Below, in pieces: positions 37,443-58,960 of a stretch of 64,000 nucleotides of DNA. A model generated the notes under the pieces. That model was not told where the DNA came from and did not search any database. It saw nothing but the letters and a program-made list of their open reading frames with translations. Positions within the stretch are counted from its first letter, which is position 1. Each line of letters starts with the position of its first letter. The position numbers were made by a program, and so were the translations under genes. This stretch comes from an uncultured Methanosarcinales archaeon (GTDB lineage Archaea > Nanobdellota > Nanobdellia > Woesearchaeales > GW2011-AR4), in assembly GCA_964585935.1 (NCBI GenBank), contig CAZPFO010000002.1:7465-71464 (forward strand). Reading direction: 5' to 3'.

Positions 37443-37624
37443 TTTTACTTTTTCTGTGTTGATAAGGTGAAAAAGGGAAAGAGTTAAATAGAATAAAAGA
37501 AAAAATTAAGATTATCAATAATAAAAATAATCAAGATTTAATAAAATTATTAGTAAGAATTAAACAATAAATAAAAATTATCAATAAGAAATTATCACTA
37601 ATAAAAATAATCAATAAAAAACAA

Positions 37625-37860
37625 ACCAATGAGTGCACAAACAGTGATTCCTTGGTTGTGAGTGTTTATGTGCGGTCGTTTTTTTATTTTAAAATCCTAA
37701 AAAATCAAAGATTTTTGGGACACCAAAAATTCTGAAGGAATTTTTTAGTGTTTTAAAACAATTGAAAAAATAAATAAAAAACGCTGCTGGAAAACGAGCA
37801 AATAATTGTGAATGTGGAACATGAATAATGATTAAATATTTAAATGATAGAAATTGATTA
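37625..37860 (+). repeat. conserved upstream module, copy 1 (blocks A, B, C), preceded by ATCAATAAAAA-type repeats from about 37500
   Basis: Block A CCAATGAGTGCACAAACAGTG..GTTGTGAGTGTTTATGTGCGGTCG plus T-run at 37625-37690. Block B AAAAACGCTGCTGGAAAACGAGCAAATAATTGTGAATGTGGAACATGAATAATG at 37776-37830. Block C ATTTAAATGATAGAAATTGATTAA follows. ATG of the pilin gene is at 37888. Confidence 0.7.
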
Positions 37861-37887
37861 AAATACTGATTAAAAAAGAGGTACAAA

Positions 37888-38370
37888 ATGGGCAATAGAA
37901 AAGCTCAGGCAGCGCTGGAATTTCTTACTACATACGGCTGGGCAATTCTGGTTATATTGATTACGATAAGCGCGCTTTATTACTTCGGAATCTTTGATTT
38001 TACCAAATATCTTCCTCAGGAATGTAATTTCCCGCCGCAATTCAAGTGTATTGACTTTAGCATGATAGATGAAGGAGGAACTCAGGAGATAAGATTCCTG
38101 CTTTTGAATAATATTGGGGAGGAGGTTTATGTAGAGGGATTCGATATAACGAATAATGCAGATCCGCCTCTGGAATGTACAGGGCCAACAAACACTCCTG
38201 AGTGGGTGAGTGGTGAAGAGAAGGATTTTGTATTTACCAACTGCCAATATGGAGTGTTTATAGAGGGAGAAAGAATTGAAGCCAAAATAAATTTTACATA
38301 CTATGCTCCTCTTACGCCTTCTCAACCAAGACATACTGTAAGAGGAAAAATAACAGGCACAGTAGGATGA
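37888..38370 (+). CDS. type IV pilin-like protein (class-III signal peptide)
   Basis: MGNRKAQAALEFLTTYGWAILVILITISALYYFGIF. Confidence 0.75.
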   Translation: MGNRKAQAALEFLTTYGWAILVILITISALYYFGIFDFTKYLPQECNFPPQFKCIDFSMIDEGGTQEIRFLLLNNIGEEVYVEGFDITNNADPPLECTGPTNTPEWVSGEEKDFVFTNCQYGVFIEGERIEAKINFTYYAPLTPSQPRHTVRGKITGTVG

Positions 38371-38816
38371 AAGCACAATCTGCCTTGGAATATCTGATGG
38401 TCGTAGCACTGACGCTAATGATAATTGTACCTACAACTTACTTGTTTTATAGCTATTCAAAACAATCGACAGACCAGCTGATTTATCCCCAGATAAATGG
38501 TATAGGAAGAGAAATTATAAGCACTGCAGAATCGGTTTATTATTCTGGCGAGCATTCAAGAATTGTCATGGACATCAACATGCCTGAGAAAGTCAATGAT
38601 GTTTATATCCTTGACGAGAGGGAGCTTGTTTTTGAGATTGAGGGTGAATCAGGAAACAATGAAATGGTTTTTTTCTCAGATGTCAACATAACCTCTGATT
38701 CAGATTCGTGCACTACAGTAAAATGCTATGTAAATATATCGTCTTCTGGAATAAAAAAAGTAAAGATAGAGTCTATCAACCAAGGCAGAGAGGTTTTGAT
38801 TAATAAAACAGGATGA
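38367..38816 (+). CDS. pilin-like protein (class-III signal peptide)
   Basis: MKAQSALEYLMVVALTLMIIVPTTYLF; ATGA overlap with the upstream pilin. Confidence 0.6.
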   Translation: MKAQSALEYLMVVALTLMIIVPTTYLFYSYSKQSTDQLIYPQINGIGREIISTAESVYYSGEHSRIVMDINMPEKVNDVYILDERELVFEIEGESGNNEMVFFSDVNITSDSDSCTTVKCYVNISSSGIKKVKIESINQGREVLINKTG

Positions 38817-39814
38817 TCAAACCATACAAAAAAGCCCAGTTTGGAATAGAATTCGTCATACTAATCACTTTTATGCTCATAGTATTTCTTGGGTTTTTTG
38901 GCATAATCACATACAAATTGGCTGATCTGGAAGAAGAGGGAAAGCAGCAGGCAGCAGCAAATATAGCTTTATTGGTGGATAATGAAGTAAAGCTGGCTAA
39001 ATCCTCTAATAATGGCTATGAAAGGGTTTTTGAAATTCCTAGTAAAATAGAAGGCAGTGATTATAACATAAGCATTATTGGTAATAGGGAGGTTGTTGTT
39101 GCTTACCCTGGGTATGAGCATATTTTGTTTCTGCCTCCGGGTGTTGAAGGAAATGTAAGCAGCGGCCTTAATAATATTACAAAAACAGAAGGCATTGTAT
39201 ATCTTCAGGGTATTACTCCGGAATGTAACAATGGAGAGGATGATGATGGCGATACTTACTTAGATTCGGCTGATCCAGGCTGTTATATTAATTGTGATTA
39301 TGTAGATGCTGGTAATTTTAGAAGGTATAGGCATGAAGCAGATAGCTGCAGTTGCAGCTCTGTAGGGCAGTGCTGCTCAGGCGCGGGCTTTGGATCTTAT
39401 TATGGCTATTTTGATGGTGATTGTGGCGGAGGCCAGTGCTGGTCAGCATGCTCTATTGGTGAAAATGTGTTGTTGATAATGAGGAACCTTATTTCAAATG
39501 TTATCAGGTTTGAAAATGATGGGGATGTTATATTGAAAGGGCAATTTCAGGATGATGATCCTAACCCTCCTGTTTCAGATGATGATGAATTCATATTTAA
39601 GGATAGAAATGGAATTACTGTTGCAGTGATCAATTTAGGGTCTGGAGATATGTTCATAAATGGAAGCAAATATGAAAACCAGCCAGCATTAACGCCTTCT
39701 CCAACAAGCAATGATTTCATTGTAAAAGACTCTAGTGGAGAGGTGATGTATTACATTGATGAGACTGGAAATCTTTATTTAAAAGGGACTTTAACAGACA
39801 ATGGAAATCCTTGA
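38813..39814 (+). CDS. pilin-like protein with Cys-rich C-terminal domain
   Basis: MIKPYKKAQFGIEFVILITFMLIVFLGFFGIITY, plus a C-terminal cluster of about 14 Cys (CNNGEDDDGDTYLDSADPGCYINCDY...CSCSS..CCSG...CGGGQCWSAC). Confidence 0.6.
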   Translation: MIKPYKKAQFGIEFVILITFMLIVFLGFFGIITYKLADLEEEGKQQAAANIALLVDNEVKLAKSSNNGYERVFEIPSKIEGSDYNISIIGNREVVVAYPGYEHILFLPPGVEGNVSSGLNNITKTEGIVYLQGITPECNNGEDDDGDTYLDSADPGCYINCDYVDAGNFRRYRHEADSCSCSSVGQCCSGAGFGSYYGYFDGDCGGGQCWSACSIGENVLLIMRNLISNVIRFENDGDVILKGQFQDDDPNPPVSDDDEFIFKDRNGITVAVINLGSGDMFINGSKYENQPALTPSPTSNDFIVKDSSGEVMYYIDETGNLYLKGTLTDNGNP

Positions 39815-39952
39815 ATAGAAAAATAAACAATTGAAAAAAAAGCCAATGATAAAAATCAATGAAAAATTCAATATTTAATAAAATTATCAATGAAAAAATA
39901 ACCAATAAGAAAAAAATTCAATAAAAAAATACCAATGAAAATTAAAAAAATA

Positions 39953-40140
39953 ACCAAGGAGTGCACAAACACTGCTTCCTCAATGGTGAGCGTGTATCTG
40001 CAGTCATTTTTTAATTTTTGAAAATTTAAACAATTTAAAAATAAATAAAAAAACTCAGATGATGAAAGCGCAAACAATTGTGCATGTGGAACATAAATAA
40101 TGGCGGAAAATTTAAATGGTAAAAATTGATAATAAAAATT
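39953..40140 (+). repeat. conserved upstream module, copy 2
   Basis: Block A GGAGTGCACAAACACTGCTTCC..GGTGAGCGTGTATCTGCAGTC plus T-run. Block B AAAAACTCAGATGATGAAAGCGCAAACAATTGTGCATGTGGAACATAAATAATG at 40047-40105. Block C AATTTAAATGGTAAAAATTGATAA. ATG at 40188. Confidence 0.7.
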
Positions 40141-40187
40141 TAAAAAATTGATTAAAAAATAATTTAAAATAAATATTGAGGTGAAAA

Positions 40188-41693
40188 ATGAATAAAACAA
40201 AAATAAAGAGAAGATATGGTAAAAAATGCATGGGTGTTTTAAATAAAAAAACTGCATTGAATTCTTTTTTTGCCTCATTTTTAAAGTTCAGCATAGCGGT
40301 AGCTCTGTTGTTTGTAATTGCCTTGTTTGTTACTGCAGGAGATGTTATAATCGAGAACGGCAAACTGAATGTAAACAACAGCTTTTATGTTGATGGTGAT
40401 GGGAATGTAGGGATTGGAACATCGCCGGGTTCAAAATTACATATAAGACAGAGTGTTGATAGTAATGTGGGTGGGTTTATGATACAAGATGTTGGTGGGG
40501 CTAATTTTAGGATTTGGAAAGATTCTGGAAACACTTATTTTTATAGAGGGCCAACACTTAATTTAATGACTTTTAATGATGCAACAGGTAATGTTGGCAT
40601 TGGGACGACGAGTCCTACTAAAAAATTACAGATTCAAGGCGGCAATGATAACGGTATTTTGATTACTGATGCAAGTGATAATAATAGGGTTATTTTAGCT
40701 CCTGATGGTGATGGTGATGGGGAAATTTCTTTGTATGATCAATCAACAGTATTAAAAGTATTAATTAGAGCTAGTGGAGATTCTTTTTTAGATGGGGGCA
40801 ACGTCGGAATTGGGACGGCGAGTCCTGGGGCACCCCTTCATATTAAAAGAGATAGTAGTTTGAGTGCCACGCAACATCTAATAATTTCAAATACAGATCC
40901 AACAAATGGCAATGCCGCATATATAAAGTTTCTTGGTTCAAGTGTGGTTAATTATGGTGATATAGGTACAGAATTTGTAGATCGCACAAGCGGTTCAGAG
41001 GACGGAAGTCTTATTTTTAGTACACGTGTTAATGGGGCGATGGCAGAGGGGATGCGAATTCATAACGGCAACGTCGGCATTGGGACGGCAAACCCTCAAG
41101 AAACGCTCCATGTTCGTGGCTGGATTATGACAGAGACAGCAGCCGCAAATCCGAGCGTGCATTTTAAAGACTCTACTTCTGGTCAAGTCTATACTCTACA
41201 GATAGACAGCAGCAACAATAATTTTCAGTTATATGACAATACTGCAGGCCAATCGCGTATTGTTGTAAAAACCGATGGCAATGTCGGCATCGGAACAACT
41301 AACCCAGATCATGACCTGGAGATTGGCACTGGAACCTATTCAGAGATTGACGCAGGTGAAGCACAATTCACCACAGGTTCGTCTAAAGAGTACAAAGAAA
41401 ACATTCGGCCGATAGCAGTACAAAAGATACTTGATAAAATCTCTACTATTCCTGTAACTACTTATGATTTCAGAGAAGAATATTGTGATAGTGCAGATGA
41501 TAAATGCAAAAATAAGCTGGGCCTGATAGCAGAAGATTTTCATGTGATCTTCAAAAGAGGTTCTGATAAGGAGATTAATGGACAAGAAGTGCAAATGGCT
41601 TTATGGCTTGCTGTTCAGGAGTTAACCAAAGAAAACCAACAACTAAAATCAATCATCTGCCTTGATTATAAAGATGCTGAGATTTGCACTTAA
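40188..41693 (+). CDS. tail-fibre-like repeat protein with C-terminal peptidase S74 (intramolecular chaperone) domain; N-terminal signal/anchor
   Basis: Five repeats of the G-N-V-G-I-G-T-(T/A)-(S/N)-P type (DGDGNVGIGTSPGSKLHI, TGNVGIGTTSPTKKLQI, GGNVGIGTASPGAPLHI, NGNVGIGTANPQETLHV, DGNVGIGTTNPDHDLEI). The C-terminus SSKEYKENIRPI...IPVTTYDF...LGLIAEDFHVIF...ALWLAVQELTKENQQLK matches the S74 SDxRxKxNI / coiled-tail pattern. Confidence 0.7.
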   Translation: MNKTKIKRRYGKKCMGVLNKKTALNSFFASFLKFSIAVALLFVIALFVTAGDVIIENGKLNVNNSFYVDGDGNVGIGTSPGSKLHIRQSVDSNVGGFMIQDVGGANFRIWKDSGNTYFYRGPTLNLMTFNDATGNVGIGTTSPTKKLQIQGGNDNGILITDASDNNRVILAPDGDGDGEISLYDQSTVLKVLIRASGDSFLDGGNVGIGTASPGAPLHIKRDSSLSATQHLIISNTDPTNGNAAYIKFLGSSVVNYGDIGTEFVDRTSGSEDGSLIFSTRVNGAMAEGMRIHNGNVGIGTANPQETLHVRGWIMTETAAANPSVHFKDSTSGQVYTLQIDSSNNNFQLYDNTAGQSRIVVKTDGNVGIGTTNPDHDLEIGTGTYSEIDAGEAQFTTGSSKEYKENIRPIAVQKILDKISTIPVTTYDFREEYCDSADDKCKNKLGLIAEDFHVIFKRGSDKEINGQEVQMALWLAVQELTKENQQLKSIICLDYKDAEICT

Positions 41694-41709
41694 ATTAAAG
41701 AAAATTCCA

Positions 41710-43617
41710 TCAAACATAAGGTATATCGTGGTGGAATTTAATTCCGTAAACATAAACATAATTCCAGAACAGGCCTTGTTTTCTTGTTACAAAAACACTG
41801 AAGCCGCATTCCCTGAATATCTTGGATATTTCCTGATCAGAGCTTAGCCATGCAACATTAGGTATTAGCTTGAAAAAGTCAACATAGTCGACAAAAACAA
41901 TTTTTCCTCCATAAGGCAGCAATTCCCTCATCTCTCTTAAAACTTTCTTAACATCCTGCAGATAGCCCATCATGCCCATGCTCACGATTGAGTCTACATG
42001 GGGGATGTCAGGATGGACTCTGTTAATCTGGTGCTTATCATGGATGATAATGACATGCATATGCCCTTCTTTGACGAGCCTTTTCTTTGCTATAATCAGG
42101 TCATTTTCTGACAAGTCAGTTGCATAAATCCTGCCTTGCGGCTTAACTTTTTCTGCAAGCTGGAGAGTTAAAGTGCCAACAGAACACCCAAACTCAAGGA
42201 TTGTTTTGTTTCTTACGTCCCCCAATAACTTAAGAATTTCGTCCCTTACCCCCTTTGGCAGGATCATTTTTTCTGTCAACAGCGTTAAATATGCCAGAGA
42301 ATTGTTTACTCTTACTATTGCATCAGGATTGTAATAGAGGACCAGCAAAAGGTAAATTGGTATGCCTACAAATATAAAAGATATCGCCAGCACCAGAATA
42401 TTAAATGCGCCCTCTACCTGAAGAAGCCACACTGCAACTAAAGAAAGCATAAACAAAGTGATAAGCAGGGAGCCGGCTTTTCCAAAAGGGGCTTTAAATG
42501 GCCTTATTATATGGGGTTTTTTTAACCTTAAAATCCAGACAGCCAAAATTGTAAATATATACATCACTATCCCTAATGGCAGCAGAAGGCTCAGCAAAGT
42601 TTTGTAATTTCCAAAAGCCATTGCAAAAACAATTAATGATACTATTGCCTGGAATATTATTGCCTTGTGAGGTGTATGGAATTTTGGATGTATGCTGCTT
42701 AGCTGCGCTATAAATAATTTGTCTCTTGATAAGGCAAGGATAAGCCTAGGCAAAGCAACTATACCTCCTGCTGCAGAGCCTACAAGGGCAAAGAAAACGC
42801 CAAAATTGATAATTTTAGTGGCTGCCTCGCCAAAGATAACGCCAAAAACAGAGGACAAAGGAGTGTTTAATCCTATTAAAATACTCCAGGGTATTATCCC
42901 TAGTGAGACTATGACTATTGAAATCCCTAAGATGCCTGTTAAAATGGTTCCAAGAACCAAAGCAAGGGGTATAGTCTTTTCAGGATTCTTGATCTCTTCA
43001 GCAAGATATGTAGCTGATTCCCAGCCGAAAAAACTTTCTGCAATAAAAAATATTGTAACAAAGACAGGCAAATAACCATGAGTAAAAAACGGCGTTAGAT
43101 TGCTAATATCCATGTAAAAGACTCCTGGCAGAATAATCGATAATAAGATAGTTATTGATACTCCTGCAAGCAACACTAGAATAAATCCGCTGGCTTCTAT
43201 TCCGACGTAGGCTACAAAGTTTAATGCCAAAATAAGCAATATGCTTATCCCAATTTTCAATAATATCTGGGAGGGGTCTGGAATCAAATAATTAACAGCA
43301 GCTACAACAAGCAATGCCACTGTCAAATTCCCCACTAACCACGCAACCCAGCCAACCATAAATGAAGTAAACCTTGAATATGTTTGTTTGCTGTATTCAT
43401 AGACGCCGCCTGCACTTGGAAACATAGACACTAACTCGCCAAAAAACGTGCTTATGTAAACAGCAAAAACTGTTAATATGACCCAGGAGAGTATTGAAGA
43501 ATTGCCGGAATAAGAAGCGCCTATAGCAGAGCCAAAAAACATGCCAGTACCCATTATAGTGGCGACTGCCAAAGCCAATACAGTCCAAAATCCCAGAACC
43601 CTCTTTAACTCAGCCAT
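41710..43617 (-). CDS. fusion protein: APC-family amino-acid permease (N) + class-I SAM-dependent methyltransferase (C)
   Basis: N-terminal roughly 440 aa has about 12 TM helices with APC-like composition. The C-terminal roughly 190 aa has MTase motif I ILEFGCSVGTLTL and downstream motifs (IYATDLSENDL...VDSIVSMGMMGYL...GGKIVFVDY). Confidence 0.7.
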   Translation of the reverse strand: MAELKRVLGFWTVLALAVATIMGTGMFFGSAIGASYSGNSSILSWVILTVFAVYISTFFGELVSMFPSAGGVYEYSKQTYSRFTSFMVGWVAWLVGNLTVALLVVAAVNYLIPDPSQILLKIGISILLILALNFVAYVGIEASGFILVLLAGVSITILLSIILPGVFYMDISNLTPFFTHGYLPVFVTIFFIAESFFGWESATYLAEEIKNPEKTIPLALVLGTILTGILGISIVIVSLGIIPWSILIGLNTPLSSVFGVIFGEAATKIINFGVFFALVGSAAGGIVALPRLILALSRDKLFIAQLSSIHPKFHTPHKAIIFQAIVSLIVFAMAFGNYKTLLSLLLPLGIVMYIFTILAVWILRLKKPHIIRPFKAPFGKAGSLLITLFMLSLVAVWLLQVEGAFNILVLAISFIFVGIPIYLLLVLYYNPDAIVRVNNSLAYLTLLTEKMILPKGVRDEILKLLGDVRNKTILEFGCSVGTLTLQLAEKVKPQGRIYATDLSENDLIIAKKRLVKEGHMHVIIIHDKHQINRVHPDIPHVDSIVSMGMMGYLQDVKKVLREMRELLPYGGKIVFVDYVDFFKLIPNVAWLSSDQEISKIFRECGFSVFVTRKQGLFWNYVYVYGIKFHHDIPYV

Positions 43618-43769
43618 TATTTAAAAAATTGGAACTGTAGTATAAAAATAATTGTTTGTACTGCGGTGTGGTGAAAGAGTTTTTAATCAAATTATCAAGT
43701 AGGCCAACAAACACTGCTGACCTTATAAAATCAATAAGATTAAAAATAAAACAGAATAACTAACAGTAT

Positions 43770-44426: not shown

Positions 44427-44555
44427 AAAATAAATAAGATGAATTCGTTATAAATTAATTAAACTATTATCAATAAAAAAGAAATCAATAAATAAAGTTA
44501 CCAATAAAAAACCAAAAAGAAAAAAATCAATAAAATAATAAAAAATTAATTAAAA

Positions 44556-45395: not shown

Positions 45396-45514
45396 CTTTT
45401 TTAATAAATGATAATATTCTTTTATTTAAAGGTTTCTATTAGGAAAAAGATAAAGTTAGTTTAATGATTTAAATTCGGAACAACAATTGCTGTTGCCTAT
45501 CAGAAATTATAATC

Positions 45515-46384: not shown

Positions 46385-46474
46385 CTCAACCTCTTTATCA
46401 AATTTTTAATCAATTTTTAAATTTTTATTTATCAATCAATCATTATTTTTTAATCATTTTTAAAACAAAATAGG

Positions 46475-46690
46475 AAATTTTCTTGATTCTCAACGAGATT
46501 GAAAATTTCGTCTTCTTCTGCTCCTTTCACCAATGGTGTAAAGGAACCCAATCAGTTGATTTTCACCATTACGTTAAGTATAAAGTGAAAATCCTATTTA
46601 TTTTTTGTTGTAAACGTTATAGTTAACTAAGGTCAATGCAAAATTATTTACAACTAGTTGTGCAGTGTTTGTGTACTCATTGGTTATTTT
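46475..46690 (-). repeat. reverse-orientation copy of the conserved upstream module (upstream of prs)
   Basis: Core CAACTAGTTGTGCAGTGTTTGTGTACTCATTGG at 46651-46685 is the reverse complement of the CCAATGAGTGCACAAACACTGC..ACTAGTTG core. The extended region at 46475-46650 aligns with 58695-58900. Confidence 0.55.
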
Positions 46691-46735
46691 TTTAATTTAT
46701 TTTAACATTGATTGATTTTTTATTGATTTTATTGT

Positions 46736-47314
46736 TTATTTATTTAATGATTTTATAAACTTTTTCAAATCCTGGTTTAATTCTAGGGCTATTGATAATG
46801 AGCTTTGCTCTGCTGATTTTCTTGAGGAAGCGAAAGTTGCGATCAGAATATCCTTGTTTTTGAAATCATAGCGATGCTCCAGCTCTGAAAAGTCTTCCCT
46901 GCATTCAAAGTCAGGCATTTTGAGCTTTTGGTCAAAAACCAAAATCATAGCAGCTTCTGCGCCGTTCTTGATTGCTATGTCCCTCAGCTGAGTTGTTTTT
47001 TCTATCTTATCCTTGTTTTTTATGACTATTCCTTTGGCTTTCAGGTTTTTATGAGGTTTGTAGCTGATTTTATTTAACACTTCAATCTCTCTTTTTATAT
47101 TGCCTATTGCCTTTGTTCCTTTTTCACTCAAAGAATGGCCTTTTTTTGTTGATTCAATAAGGCTGTTGTCTTTCAAAATGTCCAGGATGGTCCTTATAGT
47201 GCCTTCTCCTAATTCCAATTTATCAACCAATTCAGCCCTGCTCGTGCTCTCACCTATATATAGGAAGCATCTTAAAATGTCAATATCTGTAAAATTAGCT
47301 ATGTTGCCTACCAT
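46736..47314 (-). CDS. hypothetical protein with N-terminal winged-helix (putative regulator)
   Basis: ILRCFLYIGESTSRAELVDKLELGEGTIRTILDILKDNSLIE. Confidence 0.4.
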   Translation of the reverse strand: MVGNIANFTDIDILRCFLYIGESTSRAELVDKLELGEGTIRTILDILKDNSLIESTKKGHSLSEKGTKAIGNIKREIEVLNKISYKPHKNLKAKGIVIKNKDKIEKTTQLRDIAIKNGAEAAMILVFDQKLKMPDFECREDFSELEHRYDFKNKDILIATFASSRKSAEQSSLSIALELNQDLKKFIKSLNK

Positions 47315-47442
47315 AATGCCTTATTTTGAGGATTATTTTTATAGTTTTCTATATGGAGCTCATGACTGTTTACTATTGTAAAATAGCAAAAACTTTAAAT
47401 ATGAGTAGTGTATTTCTAACCTTTAAGGTGGTAAAAATAAAT

Positions 47443-48510
47443 ATGAACAAACTAATTTTGGGAATGATTTTTCTAATGATGATAGTTGTGCCAATGGCAT
47501 ATGCTAAACCTGGGCAACTGTTGGTAGATAAGCTGGATGTTAAGGTTGATGAAAAGTGGGACAGGAGAATTACTGACGGGGACACAATAACAAGAGAAGC
47601 TGAACCTGGTTCTACAGTTGATTTTAAGATTGAGCTCAAGAATAATTATACAGACGCTGAGGATTTAAGAATTGAGGATATAACAGTTACTGTCACAATT
47701 GAAGGGATTGATGATGGAGAAGATATTGACGAGGAATCTAACGAGTTTGATATAAGGGAAGATGATGACAAGACTGTAACCATCAAATTCAAGCTGCCTA
47801 TCGAGATTGAAGAAGATACTTATAATGTATTAATTGAAGCAGAAGGTAAAGATGAGAATGGGACAGACCAAATGGTTGTATTGAATGTCGATCTAGAAGT
47901 TGAAAAAGAAGAGCAGGAGCTGAGGATTTACAGAAAGACATTGTCACCTTCAGAAGTGAAATGTGGCGGAATTGCAAGCTTAAACTTCGGCCTTATCAAC
48001 ACTGGCAGTGAAGACCAAGAAGATGTTGAGCTTATAATCTCAAATAACGATTTAGAGTATAATAATGTCGTTACAATAAGCGACATAACAGCAGATCCTT
48101 ACGAAGATGACAGCAAGTACCTTAAAACATACAGAATAGAGATTCCAGAAACTGCTGAACCTGGTATTTATCCACTGGATATAACAGTTAATTACGACAA
48201 TGGAGATGAAATCATTGAAGAGATTGTTGATATAACAGTCAGTGAGTGTGAAGTGGTGGTGGAAGAACCAGAAGAGGTTGTTGATGAAGAAACAGGTGGA
48301 GATGAGGATGTTGTTGTTGTAACACAGCCTCCAGCTGATACTGCTCCTGTTGTAACACAGCCAATAATAACAGGGCTAGCAACCGCAACTGAGGAGAAAT
48401 CTTTCTTTGAGAGTGGAACATTCATTGCATTACTGTTTGGAGCAGAAGCAATTATAGTAGTGATTGCAATATTGCTGGTAATGATGATTGTTAGAAAGAG
48501 AAAGCAATAA
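47443..48510 (+). CDS. acidic cell-surface protein with signal peptide and C-terminal TM-plus-basic anchor (possible archaeosortase-type sorting signal)
   Basis: AAGGTGGT Shine-Dalgarno-like motif then MNKLILGMIFLMMIVVPMAYA signal. D/E-rich beta-rich body. C-terminal ...TGLATATEE...GTFIALLFGAEAIIVVIAILLVMMIVRKRKQ. Confidence 0.5.
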   Translation: MNKLILGMIFLMMIVVPMAYAKPGQLLVDKLDVKVDEKWDRRITDGDTITREAEPGSTVDFKIELKNNYTDAEDLRIEDITVTVTIEGIDDGEDIDEESNEFDIREDDDKTVTIKFKLPIEIEEDTYNVLIEAEGKDENGTDQMVVLNVDLEVEKEEQELRIYRKTLSPSEVKCGGIASLNFGLINTGSEDQEDVELIISNNDLEYNNVVTISDITADPYEDDSKYLKTYRIEIPETAEPGIYPLDITVNYDNGDEIIEEIVDITVSECEVVVEEPEEVVDEETGGDEDVVVVTQPPADTAPVVTQPIITGLATATEEKSFFESGTFIALLFGAEAIIVVIAILLVMMIVRKRKQ

Positions 48511-48642
48511 ACTTTCTTTTTTACTTTTTTTATTTTCATTTACTTTATCTAGAAAAAAAGAGTTGTGAACTATTAATATGTCCTTACTTAGAAGTAACAA
48601 AAACAGAAAGGTTTAAAAAGGGGCAAGGTATACTATAATAAA

Positions 48643-49419
48643 ATGTTAGCACAAAAAAACTTTTTAGATGAATTAAAAAAGAACTTCAAGCTTAATATTT
48701 ATGAGGTTAAGGTATGGACTGCCTTGTTAAGCAGGGGGATAGCTGCTGCTGGCGAATTGGCTGATATTTCTGGGGTGCCAAGGTCAAGATGCTATGATGT
48801 CCTGGAAAGCCTTGAGAAAAAAGGATTTATTATAATGAAGATTGGGAAGCCAATAAAGTACATAGCTGTCCAGCCAGATGCCATTGTTGAAAGAGTCAAG
48901 AGAGATACAGAAGATAAGGCTGAAATGCAGACAGAGTTTATTGAAAATATAAGGCAGACAAACACTTTCAAGGAACTGGATCTTTTGCACAAGACAGGTG
49001 TAAAGCATATTGATATTACTGAATTATCAACCGCTATAACAGGCAGAGACAACCTAAACAGGTTTATCAAAAGCATGGTTGAAAAATCAAAGAAGAATGT
49101 CAAGATCATAACCACAAAAGACGGCTTCAAGAGAAAAGCAAAGGTTTTAAAAAATATTTTAGGAGATCTTGGAAAAAAGAAAGTCAATGTGGAGATTTTC
49201 AGCGAGATTGACAGTGAAACTGCTAAAAAGCTGCCTAAAAGCGTTAAATTAAATGAGTACAAGACAGACTCAAGATTCATAATGGTTGATAATGAGGAAT
49301 TATTATTCATGAGTTCTGATAAAGATTTAGATCCTGAATATGATTCAGGAGTGTGGGTGAAGAGCAAATTCTTTGTAGATGCCTTAAATGGAATGTTTGA
49401 AGATGGGTTAAAGGGATAA
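48643..49419 (+). CDS. TrmB-family transcriptional regulator
   Basis: N-terminal HTH LNIYEVKVWTALLSRGIAAAGELADISGVPRSRCYDVLESLEKKGFI, followed by a TrmB-like C-terminal domain. Confidence 0.7.
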   Translation: MLAQKNFLDELKKNFKLNIYEVKVWTALLSRGIAAAGELADISGVPRSRCYDVLESLEKKGFIIMKIGKPIKYIAVQPDAIVERVKRDTEDKAEMQTEFIENIRQTNTFKELDLLHKTGVKHIDITELSTAITGRDNLNRFIKSMVEKSKKNVKIITTKDGFKRKAKVLKNILGDLGKKKVNVEIFSEIDSETAKKLPKSVKLNEYKTDSRFIMVDNEELLFMSSDKDLDPEYDSGVWVKSKFFVDALNGMFEDGLKG

Positions 49420-49491
49420 ACAACTGCCTATTTTTTAAACAGAAAAGTTTAAAAGTGATTTATTATTGATTTTTTATAATAAAGGATTAAA

Positions 49492-49740
49492 ATGAAATTT
49501 ATGAAACCAAAACCAGTGGAAATTGATCGTACACATCCCAGTGATTTGGGTATTGAGGGGGAGGTACTAAAGCCAGATGTTAAACAAGTGTCAAAGGATA
49601 TAAGTGCCCTATTCCAACTTACTCATAAAAAAGTTGATTTAGCACGACCTGTACAAGGAGAAGATATACCTCAAAGCGAGTCTTCATCTTTATATGATGG
49701 GGGAGAAGCAAGTGTAAAAGAGGATTATAACCAAAAATAA
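49492..49740 (+). CDS. hypothetical protein
   Basis: 82 aa ORF; no family recognised. Confidence 0.3.
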   Translation: MKFMKPKPVEIDRTHPSDLGIEGEVLKPDVKQVSKDISALFQLTHKKVDLARPVQGEDIPQSESSSLYDGGEASVKEDYNQK

Positions 49741-49826
49741 TAATTTTATAAAATATTATTAAATTCCGATACATTTAAATATAACCTATACATTAACAAA
49801 AACATAAGAGTTCTTAAGGATTAAAG

Positions 49827-50465
49827 ATGATAGATGGAGAATTAAAAACCGGCACAACAACGGTAGGACTAGTATGTAAAGATGGTGTTATATTGGCAGC
49901 AGATAAGAGAGCAACTTCTGGTAATTTAATATCTTACAAAAAGTTTGAAAAAATAATGCCAATAACTGACAATATTGCTGTTACTGTTGCAGGTACTGTC
50001 TCTGATGTGCAGCTATTGACAAAGTACATAAAGGCTGAATTGAGACTAAAAGACATAAGAACAGGAAGAACGAGCAGTGTCAAGGAGGCAGCCAATTTAC
50101 TCGCAAGTATGGTTTATAATAACATAAGGAAGCTAAGCTTAATACCCGGGATTTCACATTTTTTAATTGGCGGTACAGATGATTCAGGATTGTACCTTTA
50201 TGACTTGGCTCCTGATGGGAGCATTGTGGAAGTGGATGATTTTGTGTCATCAGGCTCTGGCAGCGTCATGGCATATGGTGTTTTAGAAACTTTATATAAG
50301 GAGAATAGTTCAATTGAGGAAGGCACTAAGTTAGCTGTAAAGTGCATTAATGCGGCCTTGCAAAGAGACTCAGCATCAGGTGATGGCATTGATGTTATTG
50401 CAATAACAAAAGAAGGCGTAAAAAAAGTCATGACAAAAAAAGTCGAGTATAGAATCGAGGCTTAA
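49827..50465 (+). CDS. psmB: proteasome subunit beta
   Basis: Short propeptide, then the GTTTVGLVCKDGVILAADKRAT active-site Thr region. Confidence 0.9.
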   Translation: MIDGELKTGTTTVGLVCKDGVILAADKRATSGNLISYKKFEKIMPITDNIAVTVAGTVSDVQLLTKYIKAELRLKDIRTGRTSSVKEAANLLASMVYNNIRKLSLIPGISHFLIGGTDDSGLYLYDLAPDGSIVEVDDFVSSGSGSVMAYGVLETLYKENSSIEEGTKLAVKCINAALQRDSASGDGIDVIAITKEGVKKVMTKKVEYRIEA

Positions 50466-50511
50466 AAAAGTTGTTCTAAAAATCAATAAAAAATTATCAA
50501 TAGTATAATTT

Positions 50512-50680
50512 ATCATTAGGTGCACAAACACTGCACAATAAGTTGTGAGCGTGTATGTGCAGTCATTTTTTTATTTTAAATATTTAATAACAAATAAAAA
50601 AACTCAGATAATGAAAGCACAAATAATTGTGACTGTAGAACATAAACAATGATTAGAAATTCAAATGATAAATTAAAATA
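50512..50680 (+). repeat. conserved upstream module, copy 3
   Basis: Block A TAGGTGCACAAACACTGCACAATAAGTTGTGAGCGTGTATGTGCAGTC plus T-run. Block B AAAAACTCAGATAATGAAAGCACAAATAATTGTGACTGTAGAACATAAACAATG at 50596-50650. Block C ATTCAAATGATAAATTAAAATAATAAAATTGATTAA. ATG at 50721. Confidence 0.7.
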
Positions 50681-50720
50681 ATAAAATTGATTAATAAATT
50701 AAATTCTAAATTAAAGTAAA

Positions 50721-52613
50721 ATGAGCGAAATAATCAAGGAAATTATGCAGAATCTTCCAAGGGAGAAAATATCTGCAGCGAATTTTGAAGGTGCTAATAT
50801 TGTTCTTTATACAAAGGACAAGGATTTTTTTCTCAACAACAACGGCATGATCAAGGAAGTAGTTGACAGGATAAAGAAAAGGGTGGAGTTAAGGCCGGAT
50901 CCTGCAATAACAATGGATATGGAAAAGGCAGAAAAAGAGATTAAAAAGATAATCCCTGAAGAAGCAGGAATTGATGAAGTCATATTTGACCCTCAGAGAA
51001 GCAGAGTTATCATAGAGTCTGAAAAACCTGGATTGGCCATAGGAAAGCAGGGAGCAATTTTGAGAGATATAAGGGCAAAGACATTATGGGTGCCTTTAAT
51101 CAGGAGAAAGCCCGCTATAAAGTCAAAGATTATTGAGAATATAAGGGCTGTCCTTTATCAGAATTCTGAGTATAGGAGAAAGTTCCTTGATAAAGTAGGC
51201 CATAGGATTTATGATGGGTGGGTGAGGGAAAAGAAAAATGAGTGGATTAGAGTTTCGTATCTTGGCGGAGGAAGGCAGGTTGGAAGAAGCTGCTTGTTTT
51301 TACAGACACCTGAATCAAGAGTCCTGCTTGATTGCGGGATTAATGTGGCTAGTGATGACAAGGCTTACCCTTATTTAGAAGCGCCTGAATTTGATATAAA
51401 CCAGCTGGATGCTGTTATTGTGAGCCATAGCCATCTGGATCATAGCGGATTTGTGCCTTACCTGTTCAAGTTTGGGTACAGAGGCCCTGTCTACTGCACC
51501 GAGCCAACAAGGGATGTAATGGCCCTTTTAGCTCTAGATTTTATCAAGATACAGCGTTCAGAGGGAAAAGACCCTGTTTATGATGCTGAAGATATTAAAG
51601 AGATGGTAAAGCATACAATAACCCTGGATTATGATGAAGTAAGTGATGTAACGCCTGACGTAAGAATCACCTTGTATAATGCAGGCCATATTTTGGGAAG
51701 CTCTATGGTGCATCTTCATATAGGCAACGGGCTGCATAATCTTCTTTATACCGGAGATATGAAATACGGCAAGACAATGCTGCTGGAGCCTGCTATAACG
51801 CATTTCCCAAGGCTTGAAACATTGATGATAGAGGCTACATATGGCGCCAAAGAAAACGTTTTGCCTCCGCGGCACAAGCCTGAAGAGGAATGCAAGCAGA
51901 TAATCCAGGAAACTATCAAAAGAGGAGGCAAGGTTTTAATTCCTGTTCTTGGAACAGGAAGAGCACAGGAAGTCATGGTCCTGATAGAGAGCATGGTAAG
52001 AAGGGGGCTGATTGATAATATCCCTGTCTATATTGACGGCCTGGTGTGGGACATAACTGCAATACATACTGCTTATCCAGAGTACCTGAACAACATGGTA
52101 AGAAAATTAATATTCCATAAAGACCAGAATCCTTTTTTATCTGAGATTTTCAAAAGGGTCGGCAGCCAGAAAGAGAGGAAGGAGATCATTGAAGAAGGAG
52201 GACCTTGTGTTGTGATTGCAACATCAGGGATGCTGGTTGGCGGGCCTTCAGTTGAATATTTGAAAAATTTTGCAGACAATCCAAAAAATTCAATGATGTT
52301 TGTCTGTTATCAGGGTGAGGGCAGCCTTGGAAGAAGAATACAGAGAGGCGAAAAGGAATTTAATTTAGGAAGCGTAGCAAAGCCTGAGATGCTGAATATT
52401 AAGCTTGATGTCCATACAATAGAGGGCTTTACAGGACATTCGGGAAGAAATGAGCTGATGAATTTTGTTTCGAGATGCGAACCAAGGCCTAAAAAAATTA
52501 TTATAAACCACGGAGAAAACTCCAAATGTCTGGATTTGGCCAGTTCTTTGCATAAAAGCTACAGGGTTGAAACGAATGCTCCAAGGTGTTTGGAGACTGT
52601 AAGGATAAAATAA
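50721..52613 (+). CDS. archaeal CPSF1 / FttA (KH domains + metallo-beta-lactamase + beta-CASP)
   Basis: N-terminal KH repeats, HSHLDHSG zinc motif, and beta-CASP region; 630 aa, typical aCPSF1 length. Confidence 0.9.
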   Translation: MSEIIKEIMQNLPREKISAANFEGANIVLYTKDKDFFLNNNGMIKEVVDRIKKRVELRPDPAITMDMEKAEKEIKKIIPEEAGIDEVIFDPQRSRVIIESEKPGLAIGKQGAILRDIRAKTLWVPLIRRKPAIKSKIIENIRAVLYQNSEYRRKFLDKVGHRIYDGWVREKKNEWIRVSYLGGGRQVGRSCLFLQTPESRVLLDCGINVASDDKAYPYLEAPEFDINQLDAVIVSHSHLDHSGFVPYLFKFGYRGPVYCTEPTRDVMALLALDFIKIQRSEGKDPVYDAEDIKEMVKHTITLDYDEVSDVTPDVRITLYNAGHILGSSMVHLHIGNGLHNLLYTGDMKYGKTMLLEPAITHFPRLETLMIEATYGAKENVLPPRHKPEEECKQIIQETIKRGGKVLIPVLGTGRAQEVMVLIESMVRRGLIDNIPVYIDGLVWDITAIHTAYPEYLNNMVRKLIFHKDQNPFLSEIFKRVGSQKERKEIIEEGGPCVVIATSGMLVGGPSVEYLKNFADNPKNSMMFVCYQGEGSLGRRIQRGEKEFNLGSVAKPEMLNIKLDVHTIEGFTGHSGRNELMNFVSRCEPRPKKIIINHGENSKCLDLASSLHKSYRVETNAPRCLETVRIK

Positions 52614-52651
52614 TCAAAATCTTTTTATTCTATTTAATCAAAAATACTTAA

Positions 52652-53377
52652 ATGGCCGGTAAAAAGAGTGTGAAATTTTTTTCTTCAAAAGAAGAAAGGA
52701 GAACTGCATTACAGGTTCTGGTTTTAATTGCTGCATTTTTTGCTTTATTGGCTATATTGAGTTATCCTCTTCTGCCTTTATTCAAAGATGCAGTCAGATT
52801 GAGAGCTATAGTACAGGGCTTTGGCTTTTTTGGGCCTGCTTTCTTTATTTTACTGCAGGTCTTGCAGGTGTTAATAGCGCCAGTCCCTGGGCAGGCAGCT
52901 GGCTTTGTCAGCGGCTACATATTCGGGGTTTTCCCGGGAACTGTTTATACCATGATTGGCACCACCATTGGATCATATATCGCCTTTATTTTGGCAAGAA
53001 AATTTGGAAGGCCGTTTGTTGAAAAAGCCATCAGCAAGAGTTTATTGAAAAAATTTGACTATGTATCAAAAAGCAAAGGCGTATTTGCGCTTTTTTTGAT
53101 ATTTCTACTTCCAGCACTGCCTGATGATGCGATTTGTTTTATAGCCGGCTTGACAAAAATAAGGATAAGGGTTCTGGTTTTGATTGCTTTCCTTGGAAGG
53201 CTGCCTGGATTTTTTATATTGAATCTAGTTGGCAATGGGATGGCGCTTTCGCAATGGGAAACATCAGTTATAATATTCAGTTTGATGATTTTTGTTTCTT
53301 TGATTATATTTTTGTTCAGGAAACAGTTAGAAGATCATACAAATAATATTATTAAAAATAATTTTAAGGGAAAATAA
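52652..53377 (+). CDS. DedA/TVP38 (SNARE-associated) family membrane protein
   Basis: VPGQAAGFVSGYIFGVFPGTVYTMIGTTIGSYIAFILARKFGR signature. Confidence 0.75.
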   Translation: MAGKKSVKFFSSKEERRTALQVLVLIAAFFALLAILSYPLLPLFKDAVRLRAIVQGFGFFGPAFFILLQVLQVLIAPVPGQAAGFVSGYIFGVFPGTVYTMIGTTIGSYIAFILARKFGRPFVEKAISKSLLKKFDYVSKSKGVFALFLIFLLPALPDDAICFIAGLTKIRIRVLVLIAFLGRLPGFFILNLVGNGMALSQWETSVIIFSLMIFVSLIIFLFRKQLEDHTNNIIKNNFKGK

Positions 53378-53448
53378 AAAAATCAATCAATGTTAAAATA
53401 ATCAATAAAAAAAGAAATCAGGATAATCAATAAAAAACAAAAAAATTA

Positions 53449-53630
53449 ACCAATGGGTGCACAAACACTGCTTCACTAGTTGTGAGCGCGGATATGCAGT
53501 CGTTTTTTGATTTAATTTTTTTAAAACAAATAAAAATCGATAAAAAACGCAGATGATGAAAGCGCAAATAATTGTGCGTGTGGAACATTACCATTGATTG
53601 GATAATTATTGATAAAAAATCTAATTTTAT
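53449..53630 (+). repeat. conserved upstream module, copy 4
   Basis: Block A CCAATGGGTGCACAAACACTGCTTCACTAGTTGTGAGCGCGGATATGCAGTCG plus T-run. Block B AAAAACGCAGATGATGAAAGCGCAAATAATTGTGCGTGTGGAACATTACCATTG at 53543-53600. ATG at 53668. Confidence 0.7.
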
Positions 53631-53667
53631 CCAAATATTTAAATAAAAATCCTGTTTCTGCTTTTTC

Positions 53668-58935: not shown

Positions 58936-58960
58936 AATTTACTGATTAATTGAATTTTAA

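What the first reader, a model, noticed from the sequence alone, without database searches (positions are those of the whole stretch)
37450..53640. Conserved multi-block upstream module (A-B-C) repeated in front of unrelated genes
The same roughly 250 nt architecture occurs four times in direct orientation, ending 40-70 nt before the start codons of a pilin gene (37888), the tail-fibre-like gene (40188), aCPSF1 (50721) and map (53668). Each copy has an (A/T)ATCAATAAAAA tract, then block A (CCAATGRGTGCACAAACACTGC-N8-GTTGTGAGCGTGTATGTGCAGTC plus a T-run and TTTATTTTAAA), then block B (AAAAACNCAGATGATGAAAGCGCAAATAATTGTGNNTGTGGAACATAAATAATG), then block C (AATTTAAATGATAAAAATTGATTAA, TATA-like). 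A degenerate block-A core (GCCAACAAACACTGCTGACC) also sits about 70 nt upstream of dph2 at 43698-43717. Block A ending in a T-run followed by a TATA-like sequence could mean a small RNA is transcribed or terminated there. Alternatively the whole module could be a shared cis-regulatory cassette (a regulon), or a promoter-carrying mobile element. Nothing comparable is known to me for archaeal intergenic regions.
Basis: seen in the sequence. Interest (0 to 1): 0.75.

Follow-up and report, generated by a model that had tools for sequence, protein, structure and literature searches.

The report
Repeated terminator-promoter cassette in a Woesearchaeote
A 250-350 nt non-coding cassette (hairpin plus T-run, a second conserved box, then an AT-rich promoter-like stretch) sits, nearly always pointing at the next gene, in front of more than twenty unrelated genes of an uncultured DPANN archaeon; it most likely marks transcription-unit boundaries, and no such element has been described in this group.

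Summary
The window holds the four + strand copies, two overlooked - strand copies (before prs and bud32) and one remnant before dph2. About 16 further loci occur in metagenome contigs that also hold pieces of this window. The organism is a Candidatus Woesearchaeota archaeon.

Each copy has this order: an array of YCAATAAAAA units; block A (near-invariant GTGCACAAACACTG, invariant AGTTGTG, a variable GU-rich 3' arm, T5-7); an A-rich spacer; block B (GCGCAAACAATTGTGAnTGTGGAACAT); and TGATTAAAAA units up to the start codon.

Of 19 copies whose downstream side can be read, 17 point at the next gene. The downstream genes share no function. The sense strand carries essentially one T-run, at the end of A. 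The antisense strand carries 3-15.

Conservation is patchy: 96% in the 5' arm against 62-72% in the loop and 3' arm. This argues for constraint rather than plain recent copying. Syntenic relatives (82-92% aCPSF1 identity) lack the module or keep only diverged parts.

Best reading: a polar, propagated terminator-plus-promoter/leader cassette. This meets the published "putative mobile promoter" definition. No transcription start is known, so a small-RNA role for A is not excluded. In the two - strand copies, a ~200-nt structure with compensatory changes follows the A 5' arm in place of the 3' arm.

The parts
37512..37622 (+). c37: array of YCAATAAAAA 'U-units' upstream of block A
   Evidence: Sequence read; repeat families D3 and D5; motif counts per intergenic region.
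37622..37688 (+). c37 block A: conserved 5' arm, AGTTGTG, GU-rich 3' arm, T7
   Evidence: nhmmer E 6.5e-19. Folds at -16.8 kcal/mol, z -2.2.
37689..37750 (+). c37: nested ~60-nt palindromic insert between A and B, also present in L023
   Evidence: nhmmer match to L023 at E 2.7e-11.
37771..37837 (+). c37 block B (variant 5' part)
   Evidence: nhmmer E 1.1e-15.
37838..37887 (+). c37 block C: TATTTAAATGAT box, TGATTAAAA units and a GAGGT Shine-Dalgarno-like site before the pilin-like gene at 37888
39833..39948 (+). c40: array of U-units
   Evidence: 5 YCAATRA on the + strand, 0 on the - strand.
39949..40016 (+). c40 block A
   Evidence: nhmmer E 4e-19. Folds at -18 kcal/mol.
40042..40108 (+). c40 block B
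   Evidence: nhmmer E 1.6e-17.
40109..40187 (+). c40 block C: TATA-like boxes and TGATTAAAAA units before the tail-fibre-like gene at 40188
   Evidence: Hits of the genome's own promoter matrix at 49 nt and 154 nt before the ATG.
43689..43718 (+). Probable remnant of the block A 5' half before a shortened dph2
   Evidence: and family D17. Not significant on its own.
46689..46745 (-). c46m: array of U-units
46650..46688 (-). c46m: block A 5' half only
   Evidence: nhmmer E 4.9e-10.
46441..46649 (-). c46m long form: ~200-nt structured segment that follows the A 5' arm in place of the 3' arm and ends in hairpin + UAUUUUGUUUU
   Evidence: Folds with z -4.4. In the three-sequence alignment 63 pairs are 92.6% paired and 10 show compensatory changes, 0 of 500 shuffles.
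46385..46440 (-). c46m block C: TGATTAAAAA units, a TATA-like box and GAGGT before prs. No block B.
   Evidence: Promoter-matrix hit 37 nt before the ATG.
50481..50507 (+). c50: U-units
50509..50575 (+). c50 block A. Its T7 is the first T-run of 5 or more after the proteasome gene, 101 nt past the stop codon.
50591..50657 (+). c50 block B
   Evidence: nhmmer E 4.8e-15.
50658..50720 (+). c50 block C before aCPSF1
53377..53444 (+). c53: U-units
53445..53512 (+). c53 block A
   Evidence: nhmmer E 1e-20.
53536..53603 (+). c53 block B
   Evidence: nhmmer E 1.1e-19.
53604..53667 (+). c53: degenerate block C, then map's own promoter (CAAATATTTAAATAAA, 30 nt before the ATG), which is conserved in relatives
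58899..58935 (-). c58m: block A 5' half, directly downstream of an intron-bearing tRNA-like gene
   Evidence: nhmmer E 8.6e-10; sequence.
58713..58898 (-). c58m long-form structured segment, ending in hairpin + UUUUUAUUUU
58610..58670 (-). c58m: B-like core (ACACAAATAATTGTGAGGGTGTAATAT, compare the L031 variant) and a short block C before bud32
   Evidence: Read by eye and compared. Below the nhmmer threshold.
44460..44555 (+). U-unit array without A or B, in a convergent intergenic region
28720..28792 (+). U-units placed directly before a gene. The AATAAAAA box starts 28 nt before the ATG at 28793, which is the genome's usual TATA-to-ATG distance.

Best explanation
The module is a polar, propagated 'transcription-unit boundary' cassette of one Woesearchaeota lineage.

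Proposed mechanism:
- Block A acts at the RNA level as a terminator. It is an imperfect hairpin followed by T5-7. It would end whatever is transcribed into it, whether read-through from the upstream gene or tRNA, or transcripts started at the BRE/TATA-like YCAATAAAAA units.
- The A-rich spacer, block B and the TGATTAAAAA/TATA-like stretch then supply the promoter region and/or the 5' leader of the downstream gene.
- On the antisense strand the many A-runs read as T-runs, so antisense transcription would be stopped repeatedly.
- The cassette has been copied or converted between intergenic regions.
- Its invariant boxes (GTGCACAAACACTG, AGTTGTG, GCGCAAACAATTGTGA, TGTGGAACAT) are kept by selection, presumably because a protein or the transcription machinery reads them.

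What is shown: the anatomy, copy number, polarity, strand asymmetry, patchy conservation, unrelated downstream genes and variable presence in relatives.

What is inferred: termination at A, promoter or leader function of B and C, and the way the cassette spreads.
For: Copy number and polarity
- There are 23 distinct A copies and 18 distinct B copies across the window and contigs of one metagenome.
- 17 of 19 copies with a readable downstream side are co-oriented with the next gene. No copy in a tandem intergenic region is reversed.
- Downstream genes are functionally unrelated and sit at operon starts.

Strand asymmetry and termination
- The sense strand has 3-15 A-runs of 5 or more per module. 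Its 0-3 T-runs of 5 or more lie at the end of A, just after it, or in nested inserts.
- In c40, c50 and c53 the T-run of A is the first T5+ after the upstream stop codon, at 193, 101 and 126 nt.
- By eye, tRNA genes lie 40-60 nt upstream of A in L021, L023 and c58m, with no T-run of 5 or more of their own.
- The A hairpin is 76.9% paired against 24-53% when the partners are slid. Single copies fold at -16.6 to -18 kcal/mol.

Conservation
- Among paralogues the 5' arm is 95.6% identical and AGTTGTGA 92%, against 62% for the loop and 72% for the 3' arm.

Promoter features
- The genome's own promoter consensus is GAAACC-TTTATAAA, about 30 nt before the ATG.
- A GRAAAATTYAAATGAT box lies exactly 16 nt after GGAACAT of B.
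- A TATA-like hit lies 22-23 nt before the start of B in 13 of 18 copies.
- U-units occupy the TATA position of gene 28793.

Fit to a published class
- The module meets the operational definition of putative mobile promoters: at least 50 nt at 80% identity or more, upstream of non-homologous genes (PMC3488235).
Against: - No transcription start or 3' end is known. Three different TATA-like positions are compatible with the sequence: before A, before B and after B.
- The positional consistency of the promoter-matrix hits is not independent evidence, because the copies are homologous.
- Half of the block C regions score poorly against the genome's own promoter matrix: c37, c50 and c58m have no hit of 8 bits or more near the gene.
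- From general knowledge, archaeal RNA polymerase terminates at oligo-T without needing a hairpin. The hairpin and the invariant 5' arm are therefore not explained by termination alone.
- Substitutions in the 3' arm often break pairs without compensation. Covariation is weak: 4 pairs changed on both sides, matched by 64 of 500 shuffles.
- The gene upstream of c37 has its own T5 7 nt after its stop codon.
- Modules also sit in divergent intergenic regions, where there is no upstream transcript to terminate (L012, L018, L035).
- No mechanism of spread was found.
Confidence: 0.45

Rival explanations
1. Block A and its long variant are genes for small non-coding RNAs with their own promoter (the U-units) and terminator: a ~55-nt hairpin RNA, or a ~220-nt structured RNA. 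They merely lie upstream of protein genes. The invariant GUGCACAAACACUG would be a shared 5' tag or seed. B and C would be the neighbouring gene's promoter.
For: - The long form has 63 predicted pairs that are 92.6% paired. Ten pairs show compensatory changes against 3.7 expected (0 of 500 shuffles), and slid controls give 0-2. Several one-sided changes keep the pair as G-U, which fits RNA of the sense strand.
- c46m folds with z -4.4.
- A-only copies exist (L046, L054).
- One full module (L047, 3283) is followed only by ~60 nt and a hairpin plus T-run, with no ORF.
- TATA-like hits lie 25-30 nt before GTGCAC in about 5 copies.
- U-units look like the genome's BRE/TATA.
Against: - In the long form, the well-supported helices start after the 5' arm. 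The invariant arm may therefore be promoter DNA rather than RNA.
- The short hairpin shows almost no compensatory change.
- No Rfam family matches.
- No complementary target sites were found in the window beyond chance.
- The strict co-orientation with the next gene is not explained by independent RNA genes.
- Only three long-form sequences were available, and the structure was predicted on the same alignment that was then tested.
Confidence: 0.2
2. Blocks A and B are binding sites of a lineage-specific DNA-binding protein, with half-sites GCRCAAACA and TTGTGA. They would act as an upstream activating or architectural sequence that places many operons under one global control.
For: - The most conserved segments are short boxes rather than the pairing partners.
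- A and B share the same order of motifs: AATAAAA - ATGA - GCRCAAA - TTGTGA - TGTG. The local alignment scores 27 against 18.2 +/- 2.9 for shuffles, reached by 22 of 2000.
- B has no RNA structure beyond a 5-bp hairpin.
- By eye, the core of B lies some 20-45 nt upstream of a TATA-like box, where archaeal activator sites usually lie (general knowledge).
Against: - The downstream genes have no common theme.
- The spacing from B to the proven native TATA of map differs from the spacing in other copies.
- No candidate regulator is specific to this lineage. The neighbouring TrmB-family and DUF4443 genes are also present in relatives that lack the module.
- The changes seen in the 5' arm of the B hairpin are mostly wobble-compatible, which suggests RNA.
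Confidence: 0.12
3. The module is a selfish, non-autonomous mosaic repeat of the MITE, REP/BIME or BOX kind, with no host function. The orientation bias exists only because wrongly oriented insertions are harmful and are purged.
For: - Presence and absence vary at syntenic sites among relatives with 82-92% aCPSF1 identity. Intergenic lengths are 255 nt with the module against 49-131 nt without it.
- Composition is mosaic: A only, B-like only, A plus insert plus B.
- Other hairpin repeats are nested inside modules.
- Repeats coincide with contig ends in the assemblies.
- Near-identical copies stand before different genes (L014 and L045).
Against: - No consistent terminal inverted repeats. Only one weak 37-nt pair at 70% complementarity, in c50.
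- No recognisable target-site duplication in the AT-rich flanks.
- No transposase near any copy, and no Y1 transposase homologue in any held sequence of this lineage.
- No similarity to viral contigs, phages or plasmids beyond chance.
- Divergence is very uneven along the element. This is not expected for neutral decay, unless the conserved boxes are recognition sites of a mobilising enzyme.
Confidence: 0.15

Closest known systems
Putative mobile promoters (PMPs; Matus-Garcia, Nijveen and van Passel 2012, PMC3488235)
   Same: Highly similar non-coding stretches lie immediately upstream of non-homologous genes within one genome. Copy number differs between close relatives. The class is proposed to rewire or supply promoters.
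   Different: PMPs are an operational class of 50-100 nt with no defined anatomy. This module is 250-350 nt, has several ordered blocks, includes a terminator-like hairpin at its upstream end, and hosts nested elements. It comes from a DPANN archaeon.
Bacterial interspersed mosaic elements and REP sequences (BIME/REP) of enterobacteria and pseudomonads (from my own knowledge)
   Same: Intergenic position, mosaic combinations of short conserved motifs that include an imperfect palindrome, ability to act as terminators or mRNA stabilisers, many copies per genome.
   Different: REPs are GC-rich 20-40 nt palindromes found mainly after genes, in alternating orientation, and are mobilised by RAYT (Y1) transposases. 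Here the palindrome is imperfect with one invariant arm, the element points at the next gene, and no RAYT was found.
BOX elements of Streptococcus pneumoniae (boxA-boxB-boxC) (from my own knowledge)
   Same: Modular A-B-C architecture with variable module content, intergenic location often close to gene starts, predicted stable secondary structure, reported effects on neighbouring gene expression.
   Different: The sequences are unrelated and BOX elements are bacterial. boxA and boxC pair with each other, whereas here the two ends show no significant complementarity. BOX elements are not strictly oriented.
Correia elements (CREE/NEMIS) of Neisseria (from my own knowledge)
   Same: Small intergenic repeats that carry promoter-like and terminator-like functions and change expression of adjacent genes.
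   Different: Correia elements have clear terminal inverted repeats, a TA target duplication and an IHF site. None of these is seen here.
Intrinsic (hairpin plus U-tract) terminators and archaeal oligo-T terminators (from my own knowledge)
   Same: Block A ends in a hairpin followed by T5-7, and this is the only sense-strand T-run of the cassette.
   Different: Ordinary terminators are not sequence-conserved between genes. Here one arm is about 96% identical among more than 20 loci, and the element also occurs in divergent intergenic regions where nothing needs terminating.

Membership tests
Putative mobile promoter (PMC3488235) | At least 50 nt aligned at 80% identity or more between copies | tested here: met
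   The first ~47 nt of B in c40 and c53 differ at 3 positions by my count from the alignment. L014 and L045 look near-identical over ~300 nt. A paralogues average 79.5% identity, range 64-100%.
Putative mobile promoter (PMC3488235) | [quoted passage not shown] | tested here: met
   The core of B lies 50-145 nt before the start codon. Modules precede first genes of operons.
Putative mobile promoter (PMC3488235) | Downstream coding sequences are not homologous | tested here: met
   Downstream genes are aCPSF1, map, prs, bud32, pilin-like, tail-fibre-like, PTH2, HIT, RNase P p30, a phosphoribosyltransferase-domain gene, U32 peptidase, FTR beta chain and a nucleotidyltransferase.
Putative mobile promoter (PMC3488235) | Actually has promoter activity | not testable with these tools
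   Only TATA-like matches are available. There are no transcript data.
MITE | Terminal inverted repeats | tested here: not met
   Only one weak pair in c50 (37 nt, 70% complementary, AT-rich). None was found in the other copies. The ends of the segment shared by L014 and L045 are direct A-tract units, not inverted ones.
MITE | Target-site duplication and clean empty sites | tested here: inconclusive
   Syntenic intergenic regions with and without the module cannot be aligned base by base in AT-rich sequence.
REP/BIME | Short GC-rich palindrome with an associated RAYT (Y1) transposase | tested here: not met
   The hairpin is AT/GU-rich and imperfect. tblastn with a Y1 transposase from relative L060 finds nothing in the window or in the other contigs held. 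Only part of the genome could be searched.
Intrinsic-type terminator | Stable hairpin immediately followed by a U-run on the transcribed strand | tested here: met
   Folding energy -16.6 to -18 kcal/mol, 76.9% paired, T5-7 directly after the stem. The simple terminator scan does not call it, because the stem is interrupted and the loop is long. Function was not tested.
Any Rfam family (riboswitch, ribozyme, sRNA) | Covariance-model match | tested here: not met
   No match at gathering score in the window. Nothing at E up to 5 in 37400-54000 overlaps a module. Nothing in eight module-bearing contigs except tRNAs.
C/D box sRNA | C box RUGAUGA together with D box CUGA, both conserved | tested here: not met
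   AUGAUGA is present in only some B copies. It is replaced by GCUGGAA or CUAACAA in others, and there is no D box.
Leader peptide / upstream ORF | Conserved short ORF | tested here: not met
   The 13-codon ORF in B (MMKAQIIVHVEHK) has an early stop in L018 and lacks an ATG in c37, L023, L027, L036 and L016.
Integron attC site | R''/R' core sites (RYYYAAC ... GTTRRRY) at the 3' end of mobile cassettes | tested here: not met
   Reading the alignment shows no such cores (GTTGTGA does not fit GTTRRRY). The flanking genes are housekeeping genes in conserved synteny. The attC definition is from my own knowledge.

The most novel reading that the evidence does not exclude
In this DPANN lineage the host has adopted a sequence-defined boundary system. 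Every cassette would make, from the invariant GTGCACAAACACTG/AGTTGTG region, a promoter-upstream small RNA. This would be the short hairpin form or the ~200-nt structured form. Cassettes that carry block B would also give the downstream mRNA a conserved 5' leader beginning at B. Both would be read by one dedicated trans-acting factor. Termination, initiation and perhaps RNA stability of dozens of unrelated operons would then be coupled through a single RNA/protein recognition code. Such a system has not been described in archaea.
Probability: 0.15. Interest if true: 0.75.

Novelty: new variant of a known kind. Interest (0 to 1): 0.5.

Why it matters
DPANN archaea have tiny genomes, few recognisable regulators and no genetic systems. 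How they delimit and drive transcription units is essentially unknown.

This cassette is sequence-conserved and strictly polar. It combines a terminator-like hairpin with a promoter-like or leader-like region in front of more than 20 unrelated operons. That gives a concrete, testable handle on three things: where transcripts end and start, which boxes are read, and by what. It is also an example of promoter propagation in a reduced archaeal genome.

The long variant and the nested hairpin repeats add candidate structured RNAs for a group in which almost none are known.

If the element proves to be merely selfish DNA, it still documents an active repeat family in a streamlined symbiont-type genome. 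It also explains why such genomes assemble into fragments.

Tried and rejected
- **Genome collection scan.** The block A pattern gave only 4 chance bacterial hits, so the source species is not among the GTDB representatives.
- **Viral contigs, phages and plasmids.** Only chance or AT-rich matches.
- **Rfam.** Nothing at gathering or permissive thresholds.
- **Leader peptide in block B.** Rejected, because the ORF is not conserved.
- **C/D box sRNA.** Rejected: no D box, and the C box is not conserved.
- **Metabolite riboswitch for the long form.** Unlikely. It precedes prs, bud32 and a nucleotidyltransferase, which share no pathway.
- **Integron attC.** Rejected on the core motifs and on conserved housekeeping synteny.
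- **REP/RAYT.** A Y1 transposase occurs in relative L060. Its flanks do not resemble A, and no homologue exists in the held sequence of this lineage.
- **Simple terminator scan.** It does not flag block A.
- **Exact-protein look-ups for strain variants.** map gave nothing, and prs gave only a 1.2-kb contig.
- **'Paralogues far more alike than orthologues' (concerted evolution).** I first thought this held. Measurement gave 77% for c50 against its paralogues and 71% against its orthologue in L054. The claim is dropped.
- **Resemblance to a eukaryotic poly(A) signal.** The layout is AAUAAA, then CA, then a GU/U-rich tract. Archaea lack the factors that read that hexamer, and AATAAA is expected by chance in A-rich DNA. 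I treat it as coincidence.
- **Literature.** Searches found no description of such a module in Woesearchaeota or DPANN.

Full report
**Observation.** The repeat is real. The repeat finder recovers two overlapping four-copy families at 37.6, 39.9, 50.5 and 53.4 kb, and the four regions align over about 250 nt. The block A core occurs 9 times with up to 3 mismatches against 1.0 expected. The block B 25-mer occurs 3 times against 0 expected, and the A 3' arm 4 times against 0 expected. They lie at 46385-46745 before prs and at 58610-58960 before bud32. In both, the first ~35 nt of block A are followed by a different ~200-nt segment instead of the 3' arm and T-run. The 'degenerate core' before dph2 (43689-43718) looks like a truncated A 5' half but is not significant alone. 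No copy lies in window 1-37000.

**Organism and further copies.** The genes are archaeal: aCPSF1, type II methionine aminopeptidase, Dph2, Bud32. The closest named aCPSF1 relatives are Candidatus Woesearchaeota. A pattern scan of species-representative genomes found only chance hits. The metagenome scan returned 43 loci. Of these, 26 are true copies on VAPA/VAPB/VAPC contigs with 32-38% G+C. Four of the 26 are pieces of this window. After removing duplicates there are 23 distinct block A copies and 18 distinct block B copies.

**Anatomy.** Read 5' to 3' on the strand of the downstream gene, a module contains the following parts.
- **(i) U-units.** One to eight YCAATAAAAA units, 12-16 nt apart by eye.
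- **(ii) Block A.** AACCAATGAG/ATTAGG, then GTGCACAAACACTG, a 7-nt variable stretch, AGTTGTGAG, a GU-rich 3' arm, GTC and T5-7.
- **(iii) Spacer.** An A-rich spacer (ATTTTAAAA ... AAATAAATAAAAAAC).
- **(iv) Block B.** TCAGATGATGAAAGCGCAAACAATTGTGAnTGTGGAACATnAnnATTGAT.
- **(v) Block C.** Exactly 16 nt after GGAACAT comes a GRAAAATTYAAATGAT box. A variable number of TGATTAAAAA units follow, up to the start codon. The core of B therefore lies 50-145 nt before the ATG.

Conservation is very uneven among paralogues. The 5' arm is 95.6% identical and AGTTGTGA 92%. The loop is 62% and the 3' arm 72%.

A and B share the same order of motifs: AATAAAA, ATGA, GCRCAAA, TTGTGA, TGTG. Only 22 of 2000 shuffles reach the observed alignment score. 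They may therefore be diverged duplicates of one unit.

The sense strand is 41-53% A. It carries 3-15 A-runs of 5 or more per module, but only 0-3 T-runs of that length. These sit at the end of A, just after it, or in nested inserts.

**Context.**
- Of 19 copies whose downstream side can be read, 17 point at the next gene. The exceptions are an A-only copy (L046) and one full module followed by ~60 nt, a hairpin plus T-run and a convergent gene (L047).
- Upstream neighbours are tandem genes with A 20-70 nt after the stop codon in most cases, tRNA genes (L021, L023, c58m) or divergent genes (L012, L018, L035).
- Downstream genes share no function.
- In c40, c50 and c53 the T-run of A is the first T5+ after the upstream stop codon.
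- The genome's ordinary promoters read GAAACC-TTTATAAA with the TATA box starting about 30 nt before the ATG. Most mRNAs are therefore probably leaderless.
- map keeps such a promoter, and it is conserved in relatives. The module sits just upstream of it.

**Evolution.** Seven syntenic contigs from relatives with 82-92% aCPSF1 identity were fetched.

| Locus | Window | Relatives |
|---|---|---|
| proteasome-aCPSF1 spacer | 255 nt, full module | L054: 211 nt with a diverged A only. L056: 253 nt with only a B-like ATTGTGATTGTG. L053, L058, L059, L060: 131, 113, 124 and 49 nt, no module |
| Before prs | long form (351 nt) | L056: short A-like plus B-like element. L053: 30-nt spacer |

The window also has an extra VTT-domain gene plus module c53 between aCPSF1 and map. 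These two genes are adjacent in three relatives. The family is therefore older than this species, evolves fast, and is gained or lost locally. c50 is 71% identical to its orthologue in L054 and 77% on average to its paralogues. This gives no strong case for concerted evolution.

**RNA or DNA?**
- The A hairpin is real as complementarity. It is 76.9% paired against 24-53% for slid partners, and single copies fold at -16.6 to -18 kcal/mol. Compensatory change is weak, and many 3' arm substitutions break pairs.
- RNAalifold instead pairs the two invariant boxes, CACAA with UUGUG.
- B has only a 5-bp hairpin, with one-sided, wobble-compatible changes.
- The long form (c46m, c58m, L036) is different. 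It has 63 pairs that are 92.6% paired. Ten pairs show changes on both sides against 3.7 expected (0 of 500 shuffles), and slid controls give 0-2. Several one-sided changes keep the pair as G-U, which fits sense-strand RNA.
- The well-supported helices of the long form begin after the conserved 5' arm. Caveats: only three sequences were available, and the structure was derived from the same alignment.

**Excluded.** Known RNA families; a conserved peptide in B; C/D box sRNA; attC sites; terminal inverted repeats; nearby transposases; and viral contig, phage or plasmid origin.

**Interpretation.** Four facts are firm: the polarity, the one-sided distribution of T-runs, the unrelated target genes and the box-like conservation. 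Together they say that the module has direction-dependent transcriptional activity and that parts of it are read in a sequence-specific way.

The simplest model is a boundary cassette. A ends incoming sense transcription, and B and C provide the promoter and/or leader for the next operon. The A-runs stop antisense transcription. The cassette has spread between intergenic regions, so it fits the published operational class of putative mobile promoters.

Three things remain unknown: where transcription starts, since TATA-like boxes exist before A, before B and after B; whether the A hairpin or the long form are functional RNAs; and how copies arise. I put the boundary-cassette reading at 0.45, independent small-RNA genes at 0.20, a selfish mosaic repeat at 0.15 and a transcription-factor regulon at 0.12. 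These readings overlap in part.

**Comparison and novelty.** In behaviour the module resembles putative mobile promoters and bacterial mosaic repeats (BIME/REP, BOX, Correia). It fails the defining tests for MITEs (inverted ends) and for REP/RAYT. It is not sequence-related to any held library. Literature searches found no description for Woesearchaeota or DPANN. I rate it a new variant of a known kind, of moderate interest. It is a good entry point into DPANN transcription, but not a new principle on present evidence.

Noticed in passing
window 58965-59096 (-): A tRNA-like gene, probably tRNA-Gln with anticodon UUG. The anticodon stem-loop reads CTGGG-CCTTTTGA-CCCAG. It has extra inserted segments in the D and T regions. 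ARAGORN and Rfam both miss it. A tRNA-Gln lies at the syntenic place in relative L056.
   Followed up: partly
L035 2415-2588; L046 1535-1703 and 1-151; L047 3319-3414; ends of L021 and L026: A second repeat family ('ins-ii'): a ~165-nt element with a 16-bp stem (UGUCAGAAAUUUUCCA / UGGAAAAUUUCUGAGCA) and a second hairpin domain. It is found between A and B or just upstream of A. Contigs end inside it. No Rfam match.
   Followed up: partly
window 37689-37750; L023 703-762; L036 around 1780-1846: Small (~50-60 nt) palindromic inserts are nested in modules. One splits block B in L036 and has termini TGTCATG...TGACATG. These inserts, ins-ii and the long form all use GAAAATTTTC-type stems. This suggests one hairpin-repeat superfamily.
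   Followed up: partly
window 43770-44426 (+): The dph2 ORF is 218 aa and matches only positions 73-279 of the 308-position Dph2 model. About 70 N-terminal residues appear to be missing. The 152-nt spacer upstream holds the block A remnant.
   Followed up: no
window 26609-27267: A 659-nt divergent intergenic region coincides with the minimum of cumulative GC skew and a switch of gene orientation from mostly - to mostly +. It may be a replication origin.
   Followed up: no
window 52652-53377 (+): A VTT-domain membrane protein gene lies between aCPSF1 and map. These two genes are adjacent in relatives L053, L054 and L056. L058 has other genes inserted at the same spot, so this is a variable site.
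   Followed up: partly
window 50463-50485 and the same place in L053, L054, L056, L058, L059: The sequence AAAAA(G)GTTGTTCTAAA directly after the proteasome subunit stop codon is conserved in five syntenic relatives, although the rest of the spacer is not.
   Followed up: no
window 28755-28785 and 30005-30035: Two neighbouring genes share the upstream sequence AAAATCAATAAAAAGRACTAGAAAAAA. In the first, the AATAAAAA box lies at the usual TATA distance from the ATG.
   Followed up: no
window 40587-41114 (+), inside the tail-fibre-like gene: Three in-frame 48-nt repeats (GGCAACGTCGGCATTGGGACG...) lie 210 and 270 nt apart. The protein ends in a Peptidase_S74 (endosialidase chaperone) domain.
   Followed up: no
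L060 5196-5741 (-): A relative with 82% aCPSF1 identity carries an IS200/IS605-type Y1 transposase gene near aCPSF1. Its flanks do not resemble block A.
   Followed up: partly
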